Below are positions 40,868 through 61,076 of a stretch of DNA of 64,000 nt, piece after piece (position 1 is the stretch's first letter; each line of letters begins with the position of its first letter). The translations under genes and the position numbers were made by a program. The DNA lies in the NCBI RefSeq assembly GCF_013167455.1, contig NZ_CP038328.1. One strand, 5' to 3'. The notes beneath the pieces are model-generated. The model saw nothing but the letters and a program-made list of their open reading frames with translations, was not told the DNA's origin and did not search any database. Origin of the DNA: Escherichia coli O157:H7 (GTDB lineage Bacteria; Pseudomonadota; Gammaproteobacteria; Enterobacterales; Enterobacteriaceae).

Positions 40868-43853
40868 TTATTCAAACAGGGCTTCAATATCGTTAATTAG
40901 CTCGCTGGCGGTGATGGCATCGAGTACGGAGAACTGCGCTTCCTGTGTTGAATTACTCCCCCAGCCATAGCTTTCTGCGTTGCCTTCCCATAGCCACAGC
41001 TTGCTTAAGATTTGCTCGGCACTCAGTTCGGCTGGCGACATGCCTACCGCAAAACCTTCATCGATTTCCATGATTAACGACCAGCGGCCCAGAGGTTTGA
41101 TCATCCAGCCGATCCAGCCTCCATCCTGCGGGGTGCCCTTTATCCAGCCTTTATTCGCCAGCCCCATGACCCGACCGCTCGGGCATTTTCTGCCTGCCCA
41201 GCGGGTCAGTTCGCTGGCGTTGCGCTCGGCTTCTGTCAGGGCGTAACTGTTACGGTCAAGCTGACGGAACGGTGGTAGCAGTTCATAGTCGGCAAAAAGC
41301 TGACCAAAGGCGGTAGCATCCGTCGGTGATATTTCCAGAACGTGAGGAATGCCAACAGAGATATCGCCTTCCGGCAGGGTGAAAAGATCATCGTCAGCGG
41401 TGCTGTAGCTGTTATCTTCCGCCACGCGGAAGCACGTCAGTAGCTGGTTTTCGGTGCTATAAACGCCCCAAATCAGACGGCGGGTTAAGTGGCGTACCAG
41501 TGGATGTTCAACCAGGAAGAGCTGAAAGTTTTCTGGCGACCAGCGGCGACGCAGGCACATGGCGGATTCCAACCTTGCTACCTGCTGGGCGGCGACGGTA
41601 CGCGCATCTTTTTTCAGCAGTTTGTAGCGGTTAACAGCATCGTTCGCCTGTGATTCATCATCGCTTTTGTTTGGTTTGGGCAGGTCTTTCAGACGGCTGC
41701 CAGAAACATCACGCACAAACGGTTTTAAGGTTTCATCAAAGCTGACGGTGAACTGGCGTGAGCCGAAATCCAGCAGCAACGAACCGTTATCATCCAGACC
41801 GAGATCCGGTGCTAACCGATCTTCAAGCTCTGCCACCGTGAGTTCGCGGCTTTCGGCAATGCCGGCAATTTTTTCTTTTGCCCGCTCCTGTAATGCTTTG
41901 AATTTCAGTTTCTGGGCAATACCGTTAAGCTGCATCAGGGCGATATCACTACCGATAGCGGCGAGAATATCCAACCCAACGGTGGCGCGTTTATGCTGGG
42001 ATTCACCAGGCCAGGCGCGTATTAATGGCGTCAGTTTGCGGGCGGTGTCATCGTTACCAAGAACGCCTAACGCAGTGAACGCCCAACTCTCTTTCGACGG
42101 TGCGCCCGCAGTCAGCCAGGCGGTAAACAGATCCCAGGCAAATTCAGCCAGTGAGTCGGCGGTACAGGCATCTTTCACCTGCAATAATCCCGGATACAGG
42201 GCCTCTTCCTGAGGGAAGCGGAGCATTTCACCGAGGTGCTGGAGTGCGCTATCTGGCAGTACCTTGCTGCTATTTTTGAGTTTCGGGCGAGTCCATAATG
42301 GAGGTTGATAAAACAACGGTAAAGGGGGGATTTTCGCCGGGTATTTACCCACAGGACTGTTGTCGTTATTTTTATTTTGAGTTTCCCAGGGCGGCGAGAC
42401 TAGTACCATTGGTAGAATTTCTGAGTTTGCAAAATCTTCATTGCGACTATTCAGCAATTGCTGACATTGTTGCAATAAATTTGCCGCTTGCGACGATAAT
42501 CCGATGACTAATTTTTCGACAAATAAAGGATTTGCATTAAGTAATGAAACCAGCAATGTATGTTTGCGTTTATCATCTTTTTTTACCAATGCTTCGGCTA
42601 ATGCCACTATCGTTGCAGAAGGAAAATTTTCGGCACTTTTTATTCGTAATGGCCAACGGATGATTAATACATTTCAGTACGTCACCGCAATTATCTTCTT
42701 CAGCATAGGGAGTCAGGCGAGCCAGTGCCGCTATACCTTGCTCCCGTAATACCGTAGCTGACCAACTGGCACCATAGGTGTTAAATACATCAATGTATTG
42801 ATAGTTCTCCAGTATTTCGAGCGTGAATGGATCTGTCGCTACCAGTTTCAACATTTCAAGTTGTGGAACATCTGCGACCTGGTGTAAACGATGTACGATC
42901 TCATGGGCCACTTCGGGTATTTCTGGCATTAAAATGGCAATTAACGGTTGGCGATAGAGTGATATATCTGGTAACGCAACGAGTAATTTTGCAATGCAAT
43001 TTTGCCATACTTCTTCTTCTGCTAGTGATAAATGTTTACGCAGACGTAAACTAAATTTGTCGTTATTCCTTCTATAACTGTCCTTGCTGCTATCTGCATA
43101 ATTAATAAAGAAAGTCAAATGTTCATCTTTATAGTCAAAATCGAAATCAATTTGCCACCAGAAGATGACAGTTTCAGTTGCGTATTCGATACCGAAGGTG
43201 CTTACAATTTCATCCAGCAACTCGGATGAGGTTTCATCATTCCAGCCCTGACAAAAACATATTTCCAGAAAAGTAAGTACCGCCATAGTACGCGCGGGTA
43301 TCTCAGTCTTTTGGGCCTTAATTAAGCTGATTGCCTGGCTAATCGCATCAGCCCATTCATCAGAGCATGAGCTGTAATCGAAAGTCAGATTTTTATAATA
43401 ATGATAAGTACGATTTGCCAATCGGGAAATTAAATTTTGTTTCTCGGGTTTGGTTGGTTTTTTTACTGGCTCTCCCGGCCAAAGGCGGTGGCTGAGGGCA
43501 TGGCGGGCAATATTCGGGGGAAGAATAATGGGATCGTTGTCTGCCAGCCAGGGTAAACCATTAGTTGCTGCCTGGCGATTTATTGAGGCTTTTTCCTCTG
43601 TGACCAGGACTTTCTTTGCTGAGGCATCATGTGAGTGAGCGTTAGCGTCTACTTGCTCCACATACCCCTTCTTCACCTTCTCCGCAATCAGCTTCAGTGC
43701 TGCTTTTTCCGCCGCCGCAGTATCTGCAAAGCTTTTTACCTGACTTTGCCCGTTGGTACCGACTTTACCCCAGTTAATATGCAGCTCGTTTCCCTGCTGC
43801 TCCACCGCCCAGAATTTATGTGATTTTTCGTCCTGATAAATATAGGTTTTCAT
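40868..43853 (-). pseudogene. WGR + DUF4132 paralog (molR/yehH-like), disrupted: frameshift at about 42573-42607 and apparent internal deletion of about 330 codons relative to yehI
   Basis: Track ORFs 42573..43853 (426 aa, WGR N-terminus MKTYIYQDEKSHKFWAVEQQG...) and 40868..42607 (579 aa) overlap by 35 nt in different frames; the 579-aa part jumps from the LVSPPW region to the YPAKIP region of the yehI alignment. Confidence 0.6.
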
Positions 43854-43865
43854 TGTTAAATCCTT

Positions 43866-46800
43866 TTAATCAAACAGTGATTCAATGTCGTTAATCAGCT
43901 CGCTGGCGGTGATGTCGTCGAGCATGGAGAAAGTGAGTGAGGATTGTTTACCGTAGCGATCATCTGGCGAGGTGATTTTTACGCTTTCAACCGGGTGCTG
44001 GTCGCCATACCCCGTTTCACCATAAATTAATGAAAAAGGTTCCGTTTCAAGTTCGAGATCGCCATGAGGGGTTGTTTTGCGCATCGCATAAACGCTGCCG
44101 CTTTCTTCCAGACGTTGCCAGCCTCTGCGTTCCAGCCCGACAATGCGTCCGGCCTGGCAAAGCCGTCCTTGCCAGCGTGTCAGTTCGTGAGTATTACGTT
44201 CATTATCAGCAAGGTGATAGCTACCTCGCTCGAGCTGTTGGAAAGGGGGAAGCAGTTCGTAATCAGCGTAAATTTGCCTGAATGCAGCGGCGGATTCAGG
44301 GGATATTTCCAGCACATGCGGAATACCGATGTTTCCTGCTGGCAGCGTGAATAACTCATCCTGCGCATCGCTGTAAGTGCTGTCTTCTGCCACGCGAAAA
44401 CAGGTGATAAGGGCGTTTTCATCGTTATAAACCCCCCATAACAGCCGTCGGGTTAAGTGACGTACCAGCGGATGCTCCACCAGAAACAGGCGGAACTGCT
44501 CTGCCGTCCAGCGTCTGCGCTGGCACATAGCCTGTTCCAGACGATCAATCTGCTGGCTGGCTATGGCGCGTACATCTTTTTTCAACTGTTTGAAGAGATT
44601 AACCGCGTCAGTTGCCTGAGTTTTTTCATCGCTCTGGTTTGGCTTAGGTAAATCTTTCAGGACTTTGCCGTTTGCATCGCACACTACAGGTTTTAAGGTT
44701 TCGTCAAAACCAACGGTGAATTTGCGGGGGCCGAAATCCAGTATCAGCGAGCCACTGCTATCAAGCCCTAAATCTGGAGCCAGGCGGTCTTCCAGTTCAG
44801 CCATAGTCAGCCCACGGTTTTCAGCAACTATGTTGATTTTCTCGCGGGCATGTTCCTGTAATGCTTTGAATTTAATTTTTCGCGCGATGCCATTAAGCAG
44901 CATTAGCGCAACATCGCTGCCAATATCAGCTAATACATCCAGCCCGGACACCGCCCGTTTATGCTGGGATTCCCCAGGCCAGGCGCGGATAAGCGGGGTT
45001 AATTTACGCGCGGTGTCGTCATTGCCTAAAATCCCAAGCGAAGTAAATGCCCAGTTTTCTTTTGCGGGTGCGCCAGCTTCTGTCCAGGCGGGATACAGAT
45101 CCCAGCCAAATTCAGCCAGTGATTCGCGGGTGAAGATTTCTCTAATGATATCCAGCCCAGCGTAGGCGGTAATGTCGCGAGGAAAGCTCAGCATAGTGCC
45201 GAGGTGGCGCATAGCGTCATCTGACAGAGGCAGGTTGTTACTTTTAAGCCGTGGTCTGCGCCACAAGGTGAACTGATAAAAGCCGGGCAGTGGGGCGATT
45301 TTAGCGGGATATTCTTCCAGTGGGTCGCTATCGAACAATGTTGCCAGCGCAGCTAAAACATCAGGTTGATTATATCCTTGCGCGATTTCCTCAATCGTTT
45401 CTCGCTGGTTTAAATTCACCAGCAGACGAAGCGCCTGGCGGGCACAATCACGATCTTTTCCTTTTTTGCCCAGGGCCACAGGAAGCAGCCCGGCGGCGGC
45501 ATGGCGTGGATAATCAGTTAGCCAGTTTCGCGCATCTTCATAAGACATTTTTTTCTGTAATTGTTGCGCCATCGGTAAGGCCAGTTCACTGACACCGAGG
45601 AAAAAGGGGAAGAAGCACAGACGTCGTGGATCACGTTGCAGGCAGGCCATAAATGCAGGTATGGCGGCGCTACCAAAAATTGCCAGAATATTTCCCTCAC
45701 CAGAGTAGTTATCTTCTTTGACTATCTGGTTAAGAAAAGAAATGGCCTGTTGACCAGGCAGGTAACAGAGGGCAATGAGATTCCAGCTTTTGTATGCATT
45801 GTTATGATAATGCACAAATTCAGCATTGAGTGCTGGAAAATCGAAGCGTAGCAGGGCATCAACGGCGCTTTGTGGCGCCGGAATTTTTTCGTATATTTTT
45901 TCTCCGCTCTCCCGCCATTTTTCAAAACCAAGATGCCACAGTATTTGTTGCTCCGGTGTAAGCGGTATTAAGTGTTTCTCCCAGCTTGCTTTTTTGATCG
46001 GCGGCAGGTCGGTAAACAATGTTTGTTTTGTCGCCTGCTGTTGGGCTATTTGCTGGAAGTGGGTGACAAGGTAAGTACGGGTCAGTTTTTTGGTAATCTC
46101 TGGAGTGACATCAGAAACAGAAGGAACTGGAAGCACTGGAAGATCAAACACAGGCGTATTTTTCTTTTTCTCTTTGGTCATCCAGGGCGGCGAAACAAGC
46201 AGCTCCGGCAACATATCCACAGTGGCATATTCACATTCTTCAGCGACTGACTGCGGACGACATTCAGATAAGATGCCTGCCGCTTTAGCATTAACCCAGG
46301 GAATGACGTCGCATACTAACTCTGGCGTGGCGGTAATCAGTTTGACAAGCGCTTTACGCCACTCTTTATCTTCATGTATTGCCAGCAAAGTAGCATAAGC
46401 CGCAATAGCCGCAGCGGGATGCTTTTGACTGGCCTTGCTTAAGTATTCCAGGTGCTTTTTCTTACCAATTACACCGAGGATCAGAATTTGAATCGCATCC
46501 GGGTGATTCGTTTTCCATAGCCATTTGACAAGATTTTCAGTCTCGCTGATGCGTTCGAAGAGATAAGTGGGATTGTCAGAATGGTCTTCCGTAAACTCAA
46601 GAAGTATCCGGCTTACACCGCGCACCCCATTATTTGCCAACAACATTGCCAGATAAGCGCGAAAATTACGAAAATCACGATACAACGGTGGGAAGTCGTA
46701 TTTTTCCACTGTACTCAGAGCAGTATCATCGGTTATCACCAGTCTTAACCAGGTCATCGCCGGGACGTTTTGGTCTGCATAGCGTAGATCTATAGCATGG

Positions 46801-47675
46801 GCGATATCCGGGCGTTCAGGGAGCAGTAACGCCGCAAAAGGTTGCCGTGCGGGGGATAGCGTCGGAATGGCGGTGAGTACTTTATCTACACAGCGTTGCC
46901 ACTCATCTTCTGAAGCGAGTGAAAGATGATGACATAGACGTTGATGCTAACTAGGTAGCGATTCTGCTTCGTGATTAGGTGGAATGATGGTGGTTACTGC
47001 GCCTTTTACTGGTTTATATTTGAGTTGAAGGGCAAAAAGGACGATTTCAACGGCGCTTTCCAGACCACAGCGAATGACTAAGTCATCGACCAGTTCATCT
47101 GCAGAGTAAGAGTTCCAAAAACTCCAGAGCAATGCTGCATCAGATTGCGCACTCCCTGTCTGTTGATTATCCAGAATTCGCCTTTGTAACTCAGCAAAAG
47201 CCTGCTGCCAGTTTTCAGGATAAGAGCGGTAATTGTTGTCGGGATCATATGCCCTGGTGTTATCTGCAATACGCTTCCATATCTCACCGTCTTTGCGCAG
47301 ATAATTGATCTCTCTGGGGCGAGAGCGATGAGGAAAAGCAAATCGGTTAATATCGTCAGTTACCGGAATAACTGCATCATCAGCCAGCCACGGGCGTTGG
47401 TTTTTACTCTCAGGGGAAGTTTCAACTTCAGGAGTGGCTTTGGTGATGGGGGGGATATGCACGTTTGCTGAAGCATTTTCCACATAGCCTTTTTTCGTTT
47501 TCTCCGCGATAAGCTTCAGTTTCGCTTTTTCCGCTGCTGCAACATCCGCAAAACTTTTTATCTGGCTTTGCCCGTTAGTGCCGACTTTGCCCCAGTTGAT
47601 ATGCAGCTCGTTTCCCTGCTGCTCAACCGCCCAGAATTTATGTGATTTTTCGTCCTGATAGATAAAGTGTCTCAT
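43866..47675 (-). pseudogene. molR: molR-like WGR + DUF4132 paralog, split into a 242-aa WGR-containing ORF and a 963-aa body ORF by a frame disruption around 46760-46950
   Basis: Track ORFs 46947..47675 and 43866..46757; the 963-aa frame continues homologous upstream of its first Met until an in-frame stop; K-12 molR is annotated as an interrupted pseudogene at this position after metG. Confidence 0.6.
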
Positions 47676-47815
47676 TCTGCATCCCTGTAATTTTATCCAG
47701 TTGAATGCAGATGCTACCAGTATTTATACGGGTTAGAGAGAGACAAAATCGTAAGAAAACAACTTTAGGAATTTATAAAGAAAAGGCGCTGTCGATGCAG
47801 CGCCTTGAAGGGGGA

Positions 47816-58296: not shown

Positions 58297-58351
58297 TACT
58301 CCCCCCCAGTACCTGATACTACCCCCCAGTACCTGATACTACCCCCCAGTA
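58297..58351. promoter_or_regulatory. Three tandem RcnR operator-type sites (TACT-C6/7-AGTA on the plus strand, i.e. TACT-G6-N-AGTA on the rcnA strand) at 20-bp spacing in the rcnA-rcnR intergenic region
   Basis: Sites at 58297-58311, 58317-58331 and 58337-58351; the last two are exact copies of a 20-bp unit. Confidence 0.7.
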
Positions 58352-58399
58352 GATTAATAGTGCTATGATTTTTCATGTTCTTGTTAACCAGGTGTTGCC

Positions 58400-58672
58400 A
58401 TGTCTCATACAATCCGTGATAAACAGAAACTGAAAGCGCGTGCCAGTAAGATTCAGGGCCAGGTCGTGGCGCTCAAGAAAATGCTCGACGAGCCGCACGA
58501 ATGCGCTGCAGTTTTACAACAGATTGCTGCTATCCGTGGCGCGGTAAACGGTCTGATGCGGGAAGTGATTAAAGGTCATCTAACGGAACATATCGTTCAC
58601 CAGGGGGATGAGCTAAAACGTGAAGAAGATCTGGATGTTGTTCTGAAGGTGCTGGATTCTTATATCAAATGA
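58400..58672 (+). CDS. rcnR: Nickel/cobalt-responsive repressor RcnR (CsoR/RcnR family)
   Basis: 90-aa helical protein; synteny divergent from rcnA. Confidence 0.9.
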
Positions 58673-58781
58673 AAGTGCCTAATATGGCCGTAGTTGAGGC
58701 AATAAATAGAGGGACAAGTGACGTTAAGCTGAATTAGAGTAAATGGCGTGAGGACACACGCCATTCGAGGTTATAGTTTGA

Positions 58782-59096
58782 TTAATTTTCGAAAAATTGC
58801 TTCACAGCCCAGCCACCATGACCACCTGGAGTTATGAATGAAACAAAACCTTTGTCATCTACGCTCTGGATTTCTACCGTCATTGATTCATCTAACACGC
58901 GACATTTATTGGATGTAATGAGACTCAGCATAGCCTGTTGGTCATTGTCCTGGATGTAACTGATCATCTCGTAAAAGTCAGTTAACTTTTTACAGTTAAA
59001 TGTACCTTCTTTAAGTGTTGCGCTGTCTCCGTGACTTAGTGCGAATGCATTTGGCATCATTGCCACAAAGATGACGGTAACGAGTAGTTTTTTCAT
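58782..59096 (-). CDS. Hypothetical secreted protein (104 aa, signal peptide, two Cys) in an AT-rich islet
   Basis: ORF with N-terminal signal peptide MKKLLVTVIFVAMMPNAFA; low-GC context. Confidence 0.5.
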   Translation of the reverse strand: MKKLLVTVIFVAMMPNAFALSHGDSATLKEGTFNCKKLTDFYEMISYIQDNDQQAMLSLITSNKCRVLDESMTVEIQSVDDKGFVSFITPGGHGGWAVKQFFEN

Positions 59097-59105
59097 TTTA
59101 GCCTC

Positions 59106-59453
59106 TTATAATTCAGAACATTCACTGATGTTGTAAGTGCCTTTTCTACCATCATCGTTTACGAGATGTAGCACGAAGATGATGGGATTGGCATCAATGA
59201 AAGATACAGAGACGTTCCCGCTTTCGGTGCTATACATCTTTGCAATCTGTTTTTCACCAATATATGAGAGATCCCAACTCACTCCGTTCAAGCTAAAATG
59301 CATCTGTTTGCCGTCAATATCGATGGAGGATTGTGCCGTAACGGTTTTCCCATTGCTGCCAATTTGACCCTGCTGAAGAGCATCACATTTATAGGAGCTT
59401 GCATAAGTAGATAGAGGTAGTAGCAGAAGTGCAGCAAAAATTTTACTCTTCAT
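59106..59453 (-). CDS. Hypothetical secreted protein (115 aa, signal peptide, two Cys) in an AT-rich islet
   Basis: ORF with signal peptide MKSKIFAALLLLPLSTYA; adjacent and co-oriented with the 104-aa ORF. Confidence 0.5.
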   Translation of the reverse strand: MKSKIFAALLLLPLSTYASSYKCDALQQGQIGSNGKTVTAQSSIDIDGKQMHFSLNGVSWDLSYIGEKQIAKMYSTESGNVSVSFIDANPIIFVLHLVNDDGRKGTYNISECSEL

Positions 59454-60503
59454 ATTTTCCCTTTGCTTGGATTTGGGTTACCTATTTTGGGGTAGTCATT
59501 ATAAAACTATTAATTAGTAAAACGAACAAGTTTTCATTTGTTTAGCAATGGTATTGTTTAGGTTTGAAATTATTACGTATTTTCATAGCAATAGGTTGGA
59601 TAAACAGCAGTTCAGGGAACAAGTTGCACTATCTACATACTTTTCCGCTTTCCATTGCATGTTAGGTAATAGATAGCCTTTGCCCGTAAGACTAAAAATA
59701 TTAGAAATGACTCATTCGAATACCTTCTATTCACCTTAATATAGGTTTGATTATTGTAATCGTTTAATGTGTCTTATGATTTTTTCCTACTTTTCATTTG
59801 CATAATATAGGGGGCACAGCATGCTCTTGAAATTAATTATTAAAATATTTAAATTTTACAGCACACAACTACTTTTCGTTGTCTTATGTGTTGAACGTAC
59901 TTCGAGTATAGGTAGGGTTGTATATATATTGCGTGGGTAGAGTTAGAATAGAGGAAGCATCATTTATAGAATATTCAAGAACGTTAGCCTGTGATCAATA
60001 AATAAAAATATCAAATGGTGTTCAAACATATTTTTCTATGAAAAATCCAGCCATCTATGATGAATTTTTAGATCCATTTTAATTAAAGTATGATTATGAA
60101 CCAAGATTTAGCCAAGAATGGGGGTATAGCGCGTATCCAATGACACCGGAAAACGCATCTATGAAGTCCTTATTTATCTCTATAAGAGGAAATCAACACT
60201 AATAAAATGTAGTGATGTAACATATCGAGCAGGTTGCTCTGATGCTGGTCTTCAACTGTGGCTTAAACAGCTATCAAACTTCGGTGTTATTGAGATGAAA
60301 GAATTATCATTCTCAACTATCAATCTCAAAAAGCTAGAGAAAATAGACCTTAATTATTCCACTCTCTAAATTTATCTATTTATTTAAAGTAAAAATGAAA
60401 ATATTATGGTATCAGCTACGTGGTGGTAACTGGTTTTTATGATCATAGGTACATATACAGGGAACCCTGGAAAACGAAAGTAATATATTGATGATTTCGT
60501 TTG

Positions 60504-60761
60504 TTATAACTTCGTGGTATCAAGTCCGGCGGCTTTGAGTCGCTCGGTAAGATTTCTCATTTTGCTGAACTCTGTAGCAAAGCTGGCTTTAAGTCCTACA
60601 CCTTCGCAAAACTCTTTTGCCGTGACGTTTTTCAGATGGTCAGCGTATTTGATCATCTGGAGGTGCATTTCCATCGTTTGGCTATTTCGTGGTGCGCTGC
60701 TAATGGCTTGCTTAATGTTCTCGTAGATCTGGGTTTCTGTCATTTTTATCTCACCTATCAA
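60504..60761 (-). CDS. Hypothetical small protein (85 aa), possibly HTH-like, divergent from thiM
   Basis: ORF only; family not recognised. Confidence 0.4.
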   Translation of the reverse strand: MIGEIKMTETQIYENIKQAISSAPRNSQTMEMHLQMIKYADHLKNVTAKEFCEGVGLKASFATEFSKMRNLTERLKAAGLDTTKL

Positions 60762-60947
60762 ATTTAGATAAATAATATAAATTAGCTAATTAAGATAGTC
60801 TACAGTTTTTACCACCTGAATGATGGGTGTGAATTGTTTCTTTTTCATTACTGATATGGGGTACACAGTGAAGACGTAATGAATGGAGGCGAGCTTGCAT
60901 CTGCAAGCCTCTTCCCCTAAGCTGGCACAAAATATAGAGATTCAACC

Positions 60948-61070
60948 AAACGACTCGGGGTGCCCTTCTGCGTGAAGGCTGAGAAATACCCGTATCACCT
61001 GATCTGGATAATGCCAGCGTAGGGAAGTCACGGACCACCAGGTCATTGCTTCTTCACGTTATGGCAGGAG
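60948..61070 (+). promoter_or_regulatory. TPP riboswitch (THI element) in the thiM leader
   Basis: Sequence ACGACTCGGGGTGCCCTTCTGCGTGAAGGCTGAGAAATACCCGTATCACCTGATCTGGATAATGCCAGCGTAGGGAAGTC matches the recalled E. coli thiM riboswitch aptamer; immediately upstream of the thiM RBS. Confidence 0.8.
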
Positions 61071-61076
61071 CAAACT

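What the first reader, a model, noticed from the sequence alone, without database searches (positions are those of the whole stretch)
58782..60790. AT-rich islet between rcnR and the thiM riboswitch carrying two small secreted proteins, an HTH-like ORF and decayed coding remnants
About 2 kb of visibly low-GC sequence holds two adjacent signal-peptide proteins of 104 and 115 aa with two Cys each, an 85-aa ORF, and 59460-60500, where short in-frame stretches in several frames look like remnants of a degraded gene. In K-12 rcnR and thiM are recalled as adjacent genes, so this looks like a horizontally acquired islet. Small periplasmic proteins in such islets are often orphan immunity proteins or enzyme inhibitors, but that is conjecture.
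Basis: partly seen in the sequence, partly recalled or inferred. Interest (0 to 1): 0.5.

Follow-up and report, generated by a model that had tools for sequence, protein, structure and literature searches.

The report
Decayed island at the thiM riboswitch
The AT-rich stretch between rcnR and thiM is the broken-down remnant of mobile defence islands that insert into the thiamine (TPP) riboswitch of thiM, leaving an orphan RptR-type repressor, two conserved small secreted proteins of unknown function and three dead gene fragments.

Summary
Window 58671-60942 (2,272 bp, 36.6% GC against 51% for the window) replaces the 88-bp rcnR-thiM spacer found in most E. coli. Only 339 of 5,426 complete genomes carry it, mainly O157:H7 and O55:H7.

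It is not a simple insertion. It is an immobilised relic of integrative islands whose attachment site is an 82-nt block of the thiM TPP aptamer. Intact relatives in E. coli and Klebsiella are flanked by two aptamer copies, with a tyrosine integrase about 80 nt after the left copy. The window keeps only the right arm and right copy.

What remains:
- A 31-codon integrase tail, the end of a replication-initiator-like gene, and a frameshifted gene of about 82 aa.
- The "HTH-like ORF", which is 79 aa, not 85. It is about 70% identical to the RptR defence-island repressor (PDB 9r2z) and has RptR operators in its promoter, but no intact gene downstream.
- The 115/104-aa pair, which is real (dN/dS 0.04-0.10) and restricted to Enterobacteriaceae islands. 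The models give an MliC/PliC-like β-barrel and an SH3-like barrel. An inhibitor role is only weakly supported.

I found no paper describing a riboswitch as an integration site.

The parts
58400..58672 (+). rcnR, the left flanking core gene. The left junction of the islet falls on its stop codon (TAA in the empty-site allele, TGA here).
58671..58737 (.). Junction DNA of unknown origin. It has no homologue in the empty site or in the Klebsiella or Citrobacter islands, and is probably what a deletion left behind.
58742..58765 (-). Hairpin AATGGCGTG-aggaca-CACGCCATT just downstream of the 104-aa gene. It looks like a terminator and lies within the module conserved with Klebsiella and Citrobacter.
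58782..59096 (-). 104-aa secreted protein (ECs2910; RefSeq calls it 'outer membrane protein'). It has a signal peptide and invariant Cys35 and Cys65. The model shows an SH3/Tudor-like small β-barrel plus a helical hairpin.
59106..59453 (-). 115-aa secreted protein (ECs2909). It has a signal peptide, with Cys23 and Cys112 conserved. The model shows an 8-stranded β-barrel. It is the first gene of a likely two-gene operon.
59454..59539 (-). Upstream region of the pair, 71-76% identical to Klebsiella, Citrobacter and E. coli PEC389. It holds a perfect TATAAT at 59498-59503 on the - strand.
59591..59683 (+). Remnant of a tyrosine integrase C-terminus (residues 402-432 of 435, motif YLHTFPLS..VID) with an in-frame stop.
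59942..60079 (+). Remnant of the C-terminus of a ~240-aa replication-initiator-like (O/DnaD-like) island protein, with an in-frame stop.
60090..60369 (+). Pseudogene of an 81-92-aa island protein, 73-76% aa identity over residues 16-92. A deletion of about 5 bp near codon 15 shifts the frame.
60504..60743 (-). RptR-family repressor (79 aa, Pfam HTH_73, ECs2908), intact. No intact gene lies downstream of it.
60765..60802 (-). rptR-like promoter and operators. The -35 is TAGACT (60802-60797) and the -10 is TATATT (60779-60774). RptR-type hexamers lie in 9-bp register: TAGATA at 60765, TAGCTA at 60783, and a degenerate AAGATA at 60792.
60744..60942 (+). Island right arm, conserved across E. coli, Klebsiella, Citrobacter and Pantoea islands. 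It has one GGGGTACA repeat (60858-60865; intact islands have 2-3), a hairpin at 60887-60912, and the block CTTCCCCTAAGCTGGCACAAAATATAGAGATTC (TATAGA at 60933-60938), which now lies where the native thiM promoter was.
60943..61024 (+). 82-nt identity block (att core), covering most of the thiM TPP aptamer. It is duplicated at both ends of intact islands, but the window has a single copy.
60946..61042 (+). TPP riboswitch aptamer of thiM (RF00059, 71.2 bits).
61077..61865 (+). thiM, the right flanking core gene.

Best explanation
Window 58671-60942 is an immobilised relic, shaped by several deletions, of integrative genomic islands whose tyrosine integrase recombines within an ~82-nt block of the thiM TPP-riboswitch aptamer.

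How intact islands are built (shown by comparison):
- The island carries its own copy of aptamer nucleotides 1-82, preceded by a conserved arm.
- After integration the host thiM promoter and aptamer copy 1 lie in front of the integrase.
- The island arm and aptamer copy 2 are joined to the native 3' half of the riboswitch and to thiMD.

History in the O157:H7/O55:H7 lineage (inferred): two such islands accumulated in tandem. One was Klebsiella/PEC389-like and carried the 115/104 pair. The other was P19_598-like, with int ... rep, an 82-aa gene and rptR. At least three deletions then removed the left att copy, the native spacer up to the rcnR stop codon, most of both islands and nearly all of the integrase. 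The segment can no longer excise.

What is probably still functional (inferred):
1. The island arm in front of the aptamer. It now occupies the place of the native thiM promoter, so it must supply thiMD transcription.
2. An autoregulated but orphan RptR-type repressor.
3. A two-gene operon for small, disulfide-bonded periplasmic β-proteins kept under strong purifying selection. My best guess is that they bind or inhibit an incoming envelope-attacking enzyme, such as a phage or competitor peptidoglycan hydrolase. That step is conjecture.
For: Accessory status and exact limits:
- 339 of 5,426 genomes carry the interval, and most have only the 88-bp spacer.
- Homology to the empty site breaks at the rcnR stop codon and at the first aptamer base.

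Intact relatives at the same site:
- E. coli P19_598 (L015) reads rcnR, K-12 spacer, TPP copy (61.3 bits), integrase, cargo, RptR-like gene, TPP copy (71.2 bits), thiM. The direct repeat is 82 nt and ends at GCGTAGGG.
- E. coli PEC389 (L021) has the same frame and carries the 104/115 pair plus McrX and an RptR-like gene.
- K. pneumoniae (L017) has a different left neighbour (a Usp gene), two TPP copies and a 78% identical integrase.

Spread:
- The attL junction sequence occurs in 10 GTDB species representative genomes. In 9 of them a same-family integrase (76-94% identity) starts about 80 nt after the aptamer.
- In E. coli, 168 genomes hold attL plus the integrase. The 82-nt core occurs at 5,701 places in 5,424 genomes, up to 3 per genome. 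The right arm is present in 570 genomes.

Remnants in the window:
- Integrase C-terminus (E=4e-6, and matched by three family members), replication-initiator-like C-terminus and a frameshifted 82-aa gene.
- Erwinia typographi shows the same pattern: an integrase tail lying upstream of an intact island.

RptR identity:
- Pfam HTH_73, E=2.6e-30. PDB 9r2z, E=1.5e-31.
- All residues highlighted in PMC12255303 are present: E25, E58, S60, K61, L69, A72 and L74, read from the alignment.
- Operators TAGATA and TAGCTA lie 18 bp apart inside the predicted promoter.

The pair:
- dN/dS is 0.04-0.10 with saturated dS against the Klebsiella and Citrobacter orthologues.
- The mature parts are conserved while the signal peptides vary.
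- The AF2 models reach pLDDT 83 and 79.5.
Against: - No experiment shows excision or integration. The att assignment rests on comparative anatomy only.
- The window has one att copy and only 31 codons of integrase, so its descent from these islands is inferred from homology of parts.
- The tandem-array history is one of several deletion and rearrangement paths that fit the gene order.
- No strong sigma-70 consensus promoter was found in the arm in front of the aptamer. There is only a TATAGA with a poor -35, so the origin of thiMD transcription in this strain is not established.
- The function of the 104/115 pair is not established. There are no Pfam, NCBIfam or PADLOC hits, and the fold matches are generic.
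Confidence: 0.85

Rival explanations
1. The interval is ancestral E. coli DNA that was deleted in K-12-like lineages, rather than being acquired.
For: The right arm upstream of the aptamer is also found next to thiM in Klebsiella, Citrobacter and Pantoea. That could suggest it is an old, native thiM upstream region.
Against: - In island-bearing E. coli and Klebsiella, the arm lies at the island side of attR, while a different, species-specific sequence lies upstream of the attL aptamer copy. In E. coli that sequence is identical to the K-12 spacer.
- About 89% of E. coli genomes have the short spacer.
- The interval has 36.6% GC, an integrase remnant and pseudogenes.
Confidence: 0.03
2. A single island decayed in place through internal rearrangement and deletions. 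No tandem array of two islands was involved.
For: E. coli PEC389 shows one island frame holding both the pair and the McrX-RptR right end, so mosaic single islands do exist.
Against: - The integrase tail in the window lies to the right of the pair and points toward thiM. In every intact island the integrase is the leftmost gene.
- Up to three core copies per genome are seen in E. coli.
- An integrase tail lies upstream of an intact island in Erwinia, and right-arm motifs precede attL in four species. These show that tandem accretion happens.
Confidence: 0.15
3. The 115-aa protein, possibly together with the 104-aa protein, is a periplasmic inhibitor of peptidoglycan hydrolases. Its role would resemble that of MliC, PliC or T4 Spackle, protecting against phage tail lysozymes or competitor muramidases.
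For: - It has a signal peptide, a conserved Cys pair and a mature size of about 97 aa.
- Eight of the top 34 AFDB50 hits are annotated as C-type lysozyme inhibitors.
- The gene sits among defence cargo such as TIR-STAND, McrX and HNH proteins.
Against: - There is no Pfam MliC match even at E<=10, and I saw no MliC signature motif in the sequence.
- OMP barrels, avidins, lipocalins and Cap15 score equally well.
- Foldseek E-values are only 1e-4 to 1e-2.
- The 104-aa partner has a generic SH3/Tudor-like fold.
Confidence: 0.25
4. The pair are orphan immunity proteins against a periplasm-acting T6SS effector or bacteriocin.
For: - They are small periplasmic proteins in an accessory island, in a narrow and patchy family.
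Against: - No cognate toxin or T6SS genes lie next to the pair in any of the loci examined.
- There is no sequence similarity to known immunity families.
Confidence: 0.12
5. The small ORFs are chance ORFs in AT-rich junk DNA.
For: They have no family annotation, and the only hits are to full-length PHROG models of identical length with no assigned function.
Against: - dN/dS is 0.04-0.10 across genera, with dS above 1.5.
- The orthologues are conserved in length and keep the same gene order in Klebsiella, Citrobacter and Buttiauxella.
- The AF2 models are confident.
Confidence: 0.01

Closest known systems
tRNA/tmRNA-targeting integrative genomic islands with tyrosine integrases, such as P4-like islands and CP4-57 at ssrA
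   Same: - A tyrosine integrase gene lies at one end, next to the target.
- Direct repeats flank the element and are made of part of a structured-RNA gene.
- The island carries a replacement copy so the target stays functional.
- Cargo is variable and rich in defence genes.
- Tandem arrays and decayed relics occur.
   Different: - The target here is a cis-regulatory mRNA leader (the TPP aptamer of thiM), not a stable RNA gene.
- The duplicated block is the 5' part of the element.
- The island therefore has to bring an upstream arm or promoter for the host operon, and the host promoter ends up facing the integrase.
- I found no paper describing this among those searchable.
RptR (RMS-proximal transcriptional regulator) of the EPEC RRDM defence island; PDB 9r2z; PMC12255303
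   Same: - It is a 79-aa HTH_73 protein, about 70% identical.
- All named DNA-binding and dimerisation residues are present.
- Its own promoter holds TAGCTA/TAGATA hexamers at 9-bp spacing.
   Different: - No Type I R-M, DarTG2 or any other intact gene follows it in the window.
- In E. coli B and PEC389 the 94% identical homologue precedes the Type IV enzyme EcoBLMcrX. In the window it is an orphan next to the att arm.
The E. coli B genome island adjacent to thiM that carries ecoBLmcrX (PMC5487053)
   Same: - It occupies the same chromosomal site and has the same right arm and RptR-like gene (ECD_02033). Window 60490-61200 matches BL21 at 85%.
- That paper already notes that gene content at this site varies among isolates.
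   Different: - The B island keeps McrX, and an IS1-associated deletion has removed rcnRAB. The O157 relic lacks McrX and keeps the 104/115 pair instead.
- The paper does not mention an integrase or the riboswitch as the att site (0 occurrences of 'integrase').
MliC/PliC/PhiA/ACP periplasmic lysozyme inhibitors
   Different: There is no sequence-level relationship, no signature motifs were seen, and the fold class is shared with many unrelated barrels.

Membership tests
Site-specific integrative island (tyrosine integrase, att = thiM TPP aptamer) | Element bounded by direct repeats (attL and attR) made of the target sequence | tested here: not met
   The window has a single aptamer copy. The feature is met in the intact relatives L015, L017, L021 and L023. 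The window element is therefore a relic, not an intact member.
Site-specific integrative island (tyrosine integrase, att = thiM TPP aptamer) | Intact integrase gene adjacent to attL | tested here: not met
   Only residues ~402-432 survive, with an in-frame stop, at 59591-59683.
Site-specific integrative island (tyrosine integrase, att = thiM TPP aptamer) | Island-specific arm abutting the att core, homologous to the arms of intact islands | tested here: met
   Window 60744-60942 aligns with the attR arms of E. coli, Klebsiella, Citrobacter and Pantoea islands. The arm is present in 570 E. coli genomes.
Site-specific integrative island (tyrosine integrase, att = thiM TPP aptamer) | Empty-site alleles exist whose sequence equals the left flank plus one core plus the right flank | tested here: met
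   The K-12-like L004 is colinear with the L015 attL left flank and attR right flank.
Site-specific integrative island (tyrosine integrase, att = thiM TPP aptamer) | Demonstrated excision or integration (circular attP, restored attB) | not testable with these tools
   This needs PCR or long-read evidence, or an integrase assay.
RptR / Pfam HTH_73 | HTH_73 domain, ~79 aa, close similarity to the solved RptR structure | tested here: met
   PF24718, E=2.6e-30. PDB 9r2z, E=1.5e-31 over residues 1-77.
RptR / Pfam HTH_73 | Conserved residues E25, E58, K61, L69, A72 and L74 (PMC12255303) | tested here: met
   All are present in the window protein, read from the alignment against the list.
RptR / Pfam HTH_73 | At least two TAGCTA-type hexamers in its own promoter | tested here: met
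   TAGATA at 60765 and TAGCTA at 60783, in 9-bp register within the predicted promoter. The background rate is 0.39 sites per kb in the window.
RptR / Pfam HTH_73 | Controls a downstream defence module (R-M, DarTG2, McrX or similar) | tested here: not met
   No intact ORF lies downstream of 60504; the next feature is a convergent pseudogene. The homologues in BL21 and PEC389 do precede McrX.
MliC/PliC C-type lysozyme inhibitors | Pfam MliC domain or signature motifs | tested here: not met
   The 115-aa protein has no Pfam match even at E<=10.
MliC/PliC C-type lysozyme inhibitors | Periplasmic 8-stranded β-barrel fold | tested here: inconclusive
MliC/PliC C-type lysozyme inhibitors | Inhibits lysozyme | not testable with these tools
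   This needs a biochemical assay.

The most novel reading that the evidence does not exclude
The thiM TPP aptamer is the chromosomal attachment site of a widespread family of enterobacterial defence islands. Because integration places the host thiM promoter and an aptamer-containing leader in front of the integrase, island excision or maintenance could be coupled to thiM transcription or thiamine status. That leader has a conserved stem sequestering the integrase SD and AUG. In addition, the island-borne 115/104 pair could be a new periplasmic anti-phage or anti-hydrolase module. The first part, the aptamer as att site, is well supported here. The regulatory coupling and the function of the pair are speculative.
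Probability: 0.15. Interest if true: 0.75.

Novelty: new variant of a known kind. Interest (0 to 1): 0.5.

Why it matters
- **O157:H7 biology.** It explains a lineage-typical O-island (ECs2908-ECs2910). It also implies that thiMD, including thiD, which is needed for thiamine synthesis, is no longer transcribed from the native K-12 promoter but from island-derived DNA.
- **A riboswitch as an integration site.** Comparison with intact relatives indicates that a riboswitch aptamer can serve as the integration target of a mobile-island family, in the way tRNA and tmRNA genes do. The island repairs the 5' half of the regulatory element and swaps promoters. About 10% of complete E. coli genomes carry the island arm at this site, and the attL signature is present in at least 9 other enterobacterial species.
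- **New candidates for study.** It gives the recently described RptR repressor a new genomic setting: next to the att arm, in front of McrX in some strains and orphaned here. It also flags a tightly conserved but uncharacterised pair of periplasmic proteins as defence-island cargo worth testing.

Tried and rejected
- **Family scans of the 104- and 115-aa proteins.** NCBIfam gave no hits and PADLOC only a weak one (E=0.019). Pfam gave nothing significant. The PHROG hits are full-length models of identical length with no assigned function, so they add nothing.
- **PDB sequence searches with both family profiles.** Nothing below E=0.3.
- **Exhaustive phmmer of the 115-aa protein against 1.8 billion representatives.** About 7 real clusters were found. 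The three long repetitive proteins among the hits are repeat-inflated artefacts.
- **Is the attL aptamer copy a working riboswitch for the integrase?** The 3' strand of P1 is not conserved at attL. AGUC occurs only in E. coli P19_598. Classical TPP switching of the integrase is therefore unlikely. I kept it only as a low-probability idea.
- **Is the pair on an invertible segment controlled by the neighbouring serine recombinase?** There is an 18-nt, 78% inverted repeat flanking the pair in PEC389. It is weak, no hix-like full sites were found, and the window has no inverted repeats. Dropped.
- **Is the integrase phage- or plasmid-borne?** No match in 50,697 phage records, and the closest plasmid hit is 42% identical.
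- **Literature.** Searches for thiM or riboswitch combined with integrase, att, island or hotspot terms found no description of this att site. The locus tags ECs2908-2910 appear in no searchable main text. One search with Z-numbers was swamped by DOI matches.
Full report

Yes.
- GC drops to 30-42% across the interval, against about 50% on both sides. It is 36.6% for 58671-60942, 31.8% for 59454-60503 and 51.0% for the whole window.
- Rfam places a full-length TPP aptamer at 60946-61042 (71.2 bits), just upstream of thiM (61077-61865).
- Both small proteins start with a basic n-region, a hydrophobic core and an AXA-like cleavage site (AFA|LS, TYA|SS). Each has exactly two cysteines, and these are conserved in all or nearly all homologues.

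Three corrections are needed.
- The HTH ORF most likely starts at the ATG at 60743. That gives 79 aa, preceded by AGGTGA, as RefSeq annotates it.
- The accessory DNA extends from 58671 to 60942.
- The "decayed gene" is three separate gene fragments.

**2. Accessory or core?**

A megablast of 58300-61200 against 5,426 complete E. coli genomes finds the full interval in 339 genomes. These are mainly O157:H7 and O55:H7, plus a few others at 97.7-99.6% identity.

Most other genomes match only rcnR and the riboswitch-thiM end. In a K-12-like laboratory strain (L004) the rcnR stop and the riboswitch are about 90 bp apart. Nothing in the window resembles that spacer.

Homology with the empty site stops at the rcnR stop codon (TAA there, TGA here) and resumes at the first base of the aptamer block, 60943. 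The window therefore carries a 2,272-bp replacement of the native spacer, not a clean insertion.

**3. What kind of element?**

Other E. coli strains carry different DNA at the same site but share the right end.

Strain P19_598 (L015) is the key example. Its order is:
- rcnR, then the K-12-type spacer;
- TPP riboswitch copy 1;
- a tyrosine integrase, an HNH endonuclease, a 115-aa paralogue, an HTH regulator and a serine recombinase;
- three small genes and the HTH_73 gene;
- TPP riboswitch copy 2, then thiM. Rfam scores are 61.3 and 71.2 bits.

Alignment of both junctions with the empty site shows an identical 82-nt direct repeat, CAACCAAACGACTCGGGG...GCCAGCGTAGGG, which is most of the aptamer. 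The native promoter and spacer lie on the left of attL. Island DNA lies between the repeats. The native P1 3' strand, expression platform and thiM lie on the right of attR. This is the classical signature of site-specific integration.

The same architecture occurs in K. pneumoniae (L017), where the left neighbour is a Usp gene instead of rcnR. There, two TPP copies (61.4 and 71.5 bits) bracket the integrase, a 191-aa protein, a TIR-nSTAND protein, a resolvase, the 104- and 115-aa genes and further DNA up to thiM. Its integrase is 78% identical to the E. coli one, and the repeat ends at the same GCGTAGGG.

E. coli PEC389 (L021) combines that left half, including the 104/115 pair at 77% nucleotide identity, with an IS1, McrX (DUF6998) and the RptR-like gene at the right end.

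A scan of one genome per species for the attL junction (AATGCCAGCGTAGGGGGCC) returned 10 species. They include Enterobacter, Citrobacter, Silvania, Atlantibacter, Pantoea and Erwinia. In 9 of them a same-family integrase (76-94% identity) starts about 80 nt after the aptamer, always in the same orientation.

Counts in E. coli:
- 168 genomes hold attL plus this integrase.
- The 82-nt core occurs at 5,701 places in 5,424 genomes, up to three per genome.
- The island right arm is present in 570 genomes.

No phage record and no plasmid carries a close relative of the integrase.

**4. Anatomy of the relic in the window**

*Right side.*
- 60744-60942 is the conserved island arm.
- It keeps one GGGGTACA repeat. 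Intact islands have two or three at 12-bp spacing, and one more sits in the integrase leader, so these are candidate arm-type integrase sites.
- It also keeps a hairpin and the block CTTCCCCTAAGCTGGCACAAAATATAGAGATTC directly before the aptamer.

*Interior, + strand.* tblastn with proteins from the intact islands finds three fragments.
- Integrase residues 402-432 at 59591-59683: 55% identity, E=4e-6, an in-frame stop, and also hit by the Klebsiella and PEC389 integrases.
- The last 46 residues of a ~240-aa protein at 59942-60079, with an in-frame stop. PHROGs relates this protein to O-like/DnaD-like replication initiators.
- An 81-92-aa gene at 60090-60369, 73-76% identical over residues 16-92. 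A deletion of about 5 bp separates its start from the rest.

*Left side.*
- The 115/104 module, with its upstream region and terminator hairpin (58738-59539), is 76-77% identical to the Klebsiella and Citrobacter modules.
- It is followed by 65 bp of unassignable DNA up to the rcnR stop.

*Inferred history.* In all intact islands the integrase is the leftmost gene. Here its tail lies to the right of the pair. The simplest history is therefore two islands in tandem, followed by at least three deletions. Tandem and decayed arrays are seen elsewhere:
- Erwinia typographi has an integrase tail upstream of a complete island.
- Four species have a right-arm motif in front of the attL aptamer.
- E. 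coli genomes have up to three core copies.

**5. The HTH-like ORF**

It matches Pfam HTH_73 (E=2.6e-30). It also matches PDB 9r2z, "Transcription factor", at E=1.5e-31 and about 70% identity.

That structure is RptR, a repressor of an EPEC defence island. RptR binds TAGCTA-type hexamers arranged as 9-bp direct repeats in its own promoter (PMC12255303).

- The window protein has every residue that paper highlights: E25, E58, S60, K61, L69, A72 and L74.
- A sigma-70-like promoter is predicted just upstream on the minus strand, with TAGACT at 60802-60797 and TATATT at 60779-60774.
- Within and next to that promoter lie TAGATA (60765) and TAGCTA (60783), 18 bp apart. A non-site lies at 60774 and a one-mismatch AAGATA at 60792. 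This is the "site, spacer, site" arrangement the paper describes.
- In E. coli B the 94% identical gene (ECD_02033) lies upstream of ecoBLmcrX. Insertions in it abolish restriction by a polar effect (PMC5487053).
- In the window nothing intact follows it, so it is an orphan and presumably autoregulated repressor.

**6. The two secreted proteins**

Homologues are confined to Enterobacteriaceae and are at least 70% identical.

An exhaustive search of 1.8 billion cluster representatives finds only about 7 real clusters for the 115-aa family. These include 39-43% paralogues carried without the 104-aa partner in the P19_598 and C. koseri islands.

They are genuine genes:
- dN/dS is 0.04-0.10 with dS of 1.5-2.7 against the Klebsiella and Citrobacter orthologues.
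- The mature regions are far more conserved than the signal peptides.

Structure models:
- 115-aa protein: pLDDT 79.5, an eight-stranded up-and-down β-barrel whose first and last strands carry the two cysteines.
- There is no Pfam MliC match.

I therefore rate "periplasmic binder or inhibitor of an incoming hydrolase" as the leading but weakly supported idea (about 0.25). No paper in the searchable set mentions ECs2908-2910.

**7. How it works now**

*Shown:* the element lacks the integrase, attL and most arm repeats, so it cannot move by its own machinery.

*Inferred:*
- thiMD must be transcribed from island-derived DNA, because the native spacer is gone. However, only a weak sigma-70 match (TATAGA, poor -35) is visible.
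- RptR-like represses its own promoter.
- The 115/104 operon is expressed from a promoter with a perfect TATAAT (59498-59503, minus strand) and is exported.

**8. Comparison with what is known, and novelty**

Integrative islands at tRNA and tmRNA genes are the closest analogue.

The differences are the target, which is a riboswitch aptamer in an mRNA leader, and the geometry. The 5' part of the target is duplicated, the island supplies the upstream arm for the host operon, and the host promoter ends up facing the integrase.

The variable "island adjacent to thiM" was noted for E. coli B (PMC5487053), but without an integrase or att site. Ten literature searches and a check of the TIGER paper found no description of a riboswitch att site. 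Literature coverage is incomplete, so I call it apparently undescribed.

The window feature itself is an ordinary decayed island, so overall interest is moderate.

Noticed in passing
L015:250-330, L017:8289-8360 and the attL loci L021-L031 (outside the window): The integrase leader that follows the aptamer copy is conserved across genera. It has a hairpin GGCCGAAAUUCGGCC, with a compensatory GA/UC to AA/UU change in Atlantibacter. A long stem pairs CAUGAG..CUCUCUUUUUG with CAAAAAGGG..UUCAUG, which would sequester the integrase SD and AUG. Enterobacter ENT03 and Silvania show compensatory changes in that stem.
   Followed up: partly
window 60858-60865; L015:7797-7819; L017:18529-18563; L017:8334-8344: GGGGTACA-type repeats at 12-bp spacing. 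Klebsiella has three in the right arm, E. coli P19_598 has two, and the window has one because of a 12-bp deletion. One more lies in front of the integrase start. They are candidate arm-type integrase binding sites.
   Followed up: partly
L029 (Erwinia typographi) 2288-2698 and 6047-7505: An integrase C-terminal remnant lies about 3.4 kb upstream of an intact aptamer-plus-integrase junction whose aptamer is preceded by the island right-arm motif. This is an independent case of tandem accretion and decay.
   Followed up: partly
L015:2567-4207; L017:13714-15157; L021:11229-12674; L025:11866-12832: Genes of the 115-aa family always lie within about 1 kb of a serine recombinase (resolvase/invertase) gene. 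A weak inverted repeat flanks the pair in PEC389. An invertible-switch idea was not supported.
   Followed up: partly
protein P0044 (metagenomic or genomic cluster representative): A 103-aa protein that fuses the N-terminal 48 residues of the RptR-like protein to the C-terminus of the 115-aa paralogue. It looks like a deletion product within a P19_598-type island.
   Followed up: no
L014 (E. coli 2013C-3277, thrW-proA site) and L013: The rep-like and 82-92-aa gene module, whose remnants lie in window 59944-60456, also occurs at ~73% nucleotide identity in elements at other sites. One of these carries a major capsid protein and a baseplate gene, which suggests kinship with phage satellites.
   Followed up: no
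L027 (MAG labelled Flavobacterium psychrophilum, 6.5-kb contig): The contig carries an enterobacterial-type aptamer-integrase junction with a 94% identical integrase. It is probably a misbinned or contaminant contig.
   Followed up: no
window about 42600-47700 (from the annotation of the near-identical record, L016): DUF4132 and WGR genes upstream of yehI (the molR region) are annotated as pseudogenes, with an internal stop and a missing N-terminus, in the near-identical O157-type genome.
   Followed up: no
L003 (BL21) 1-910: In E. coli B an IS1 sits next to a truncated DUF2574 (yehE-like) gene. The rcnRAB-yehABCD segment is therefore missing to the left of the thiM island in that lineage.
   Followed up: no
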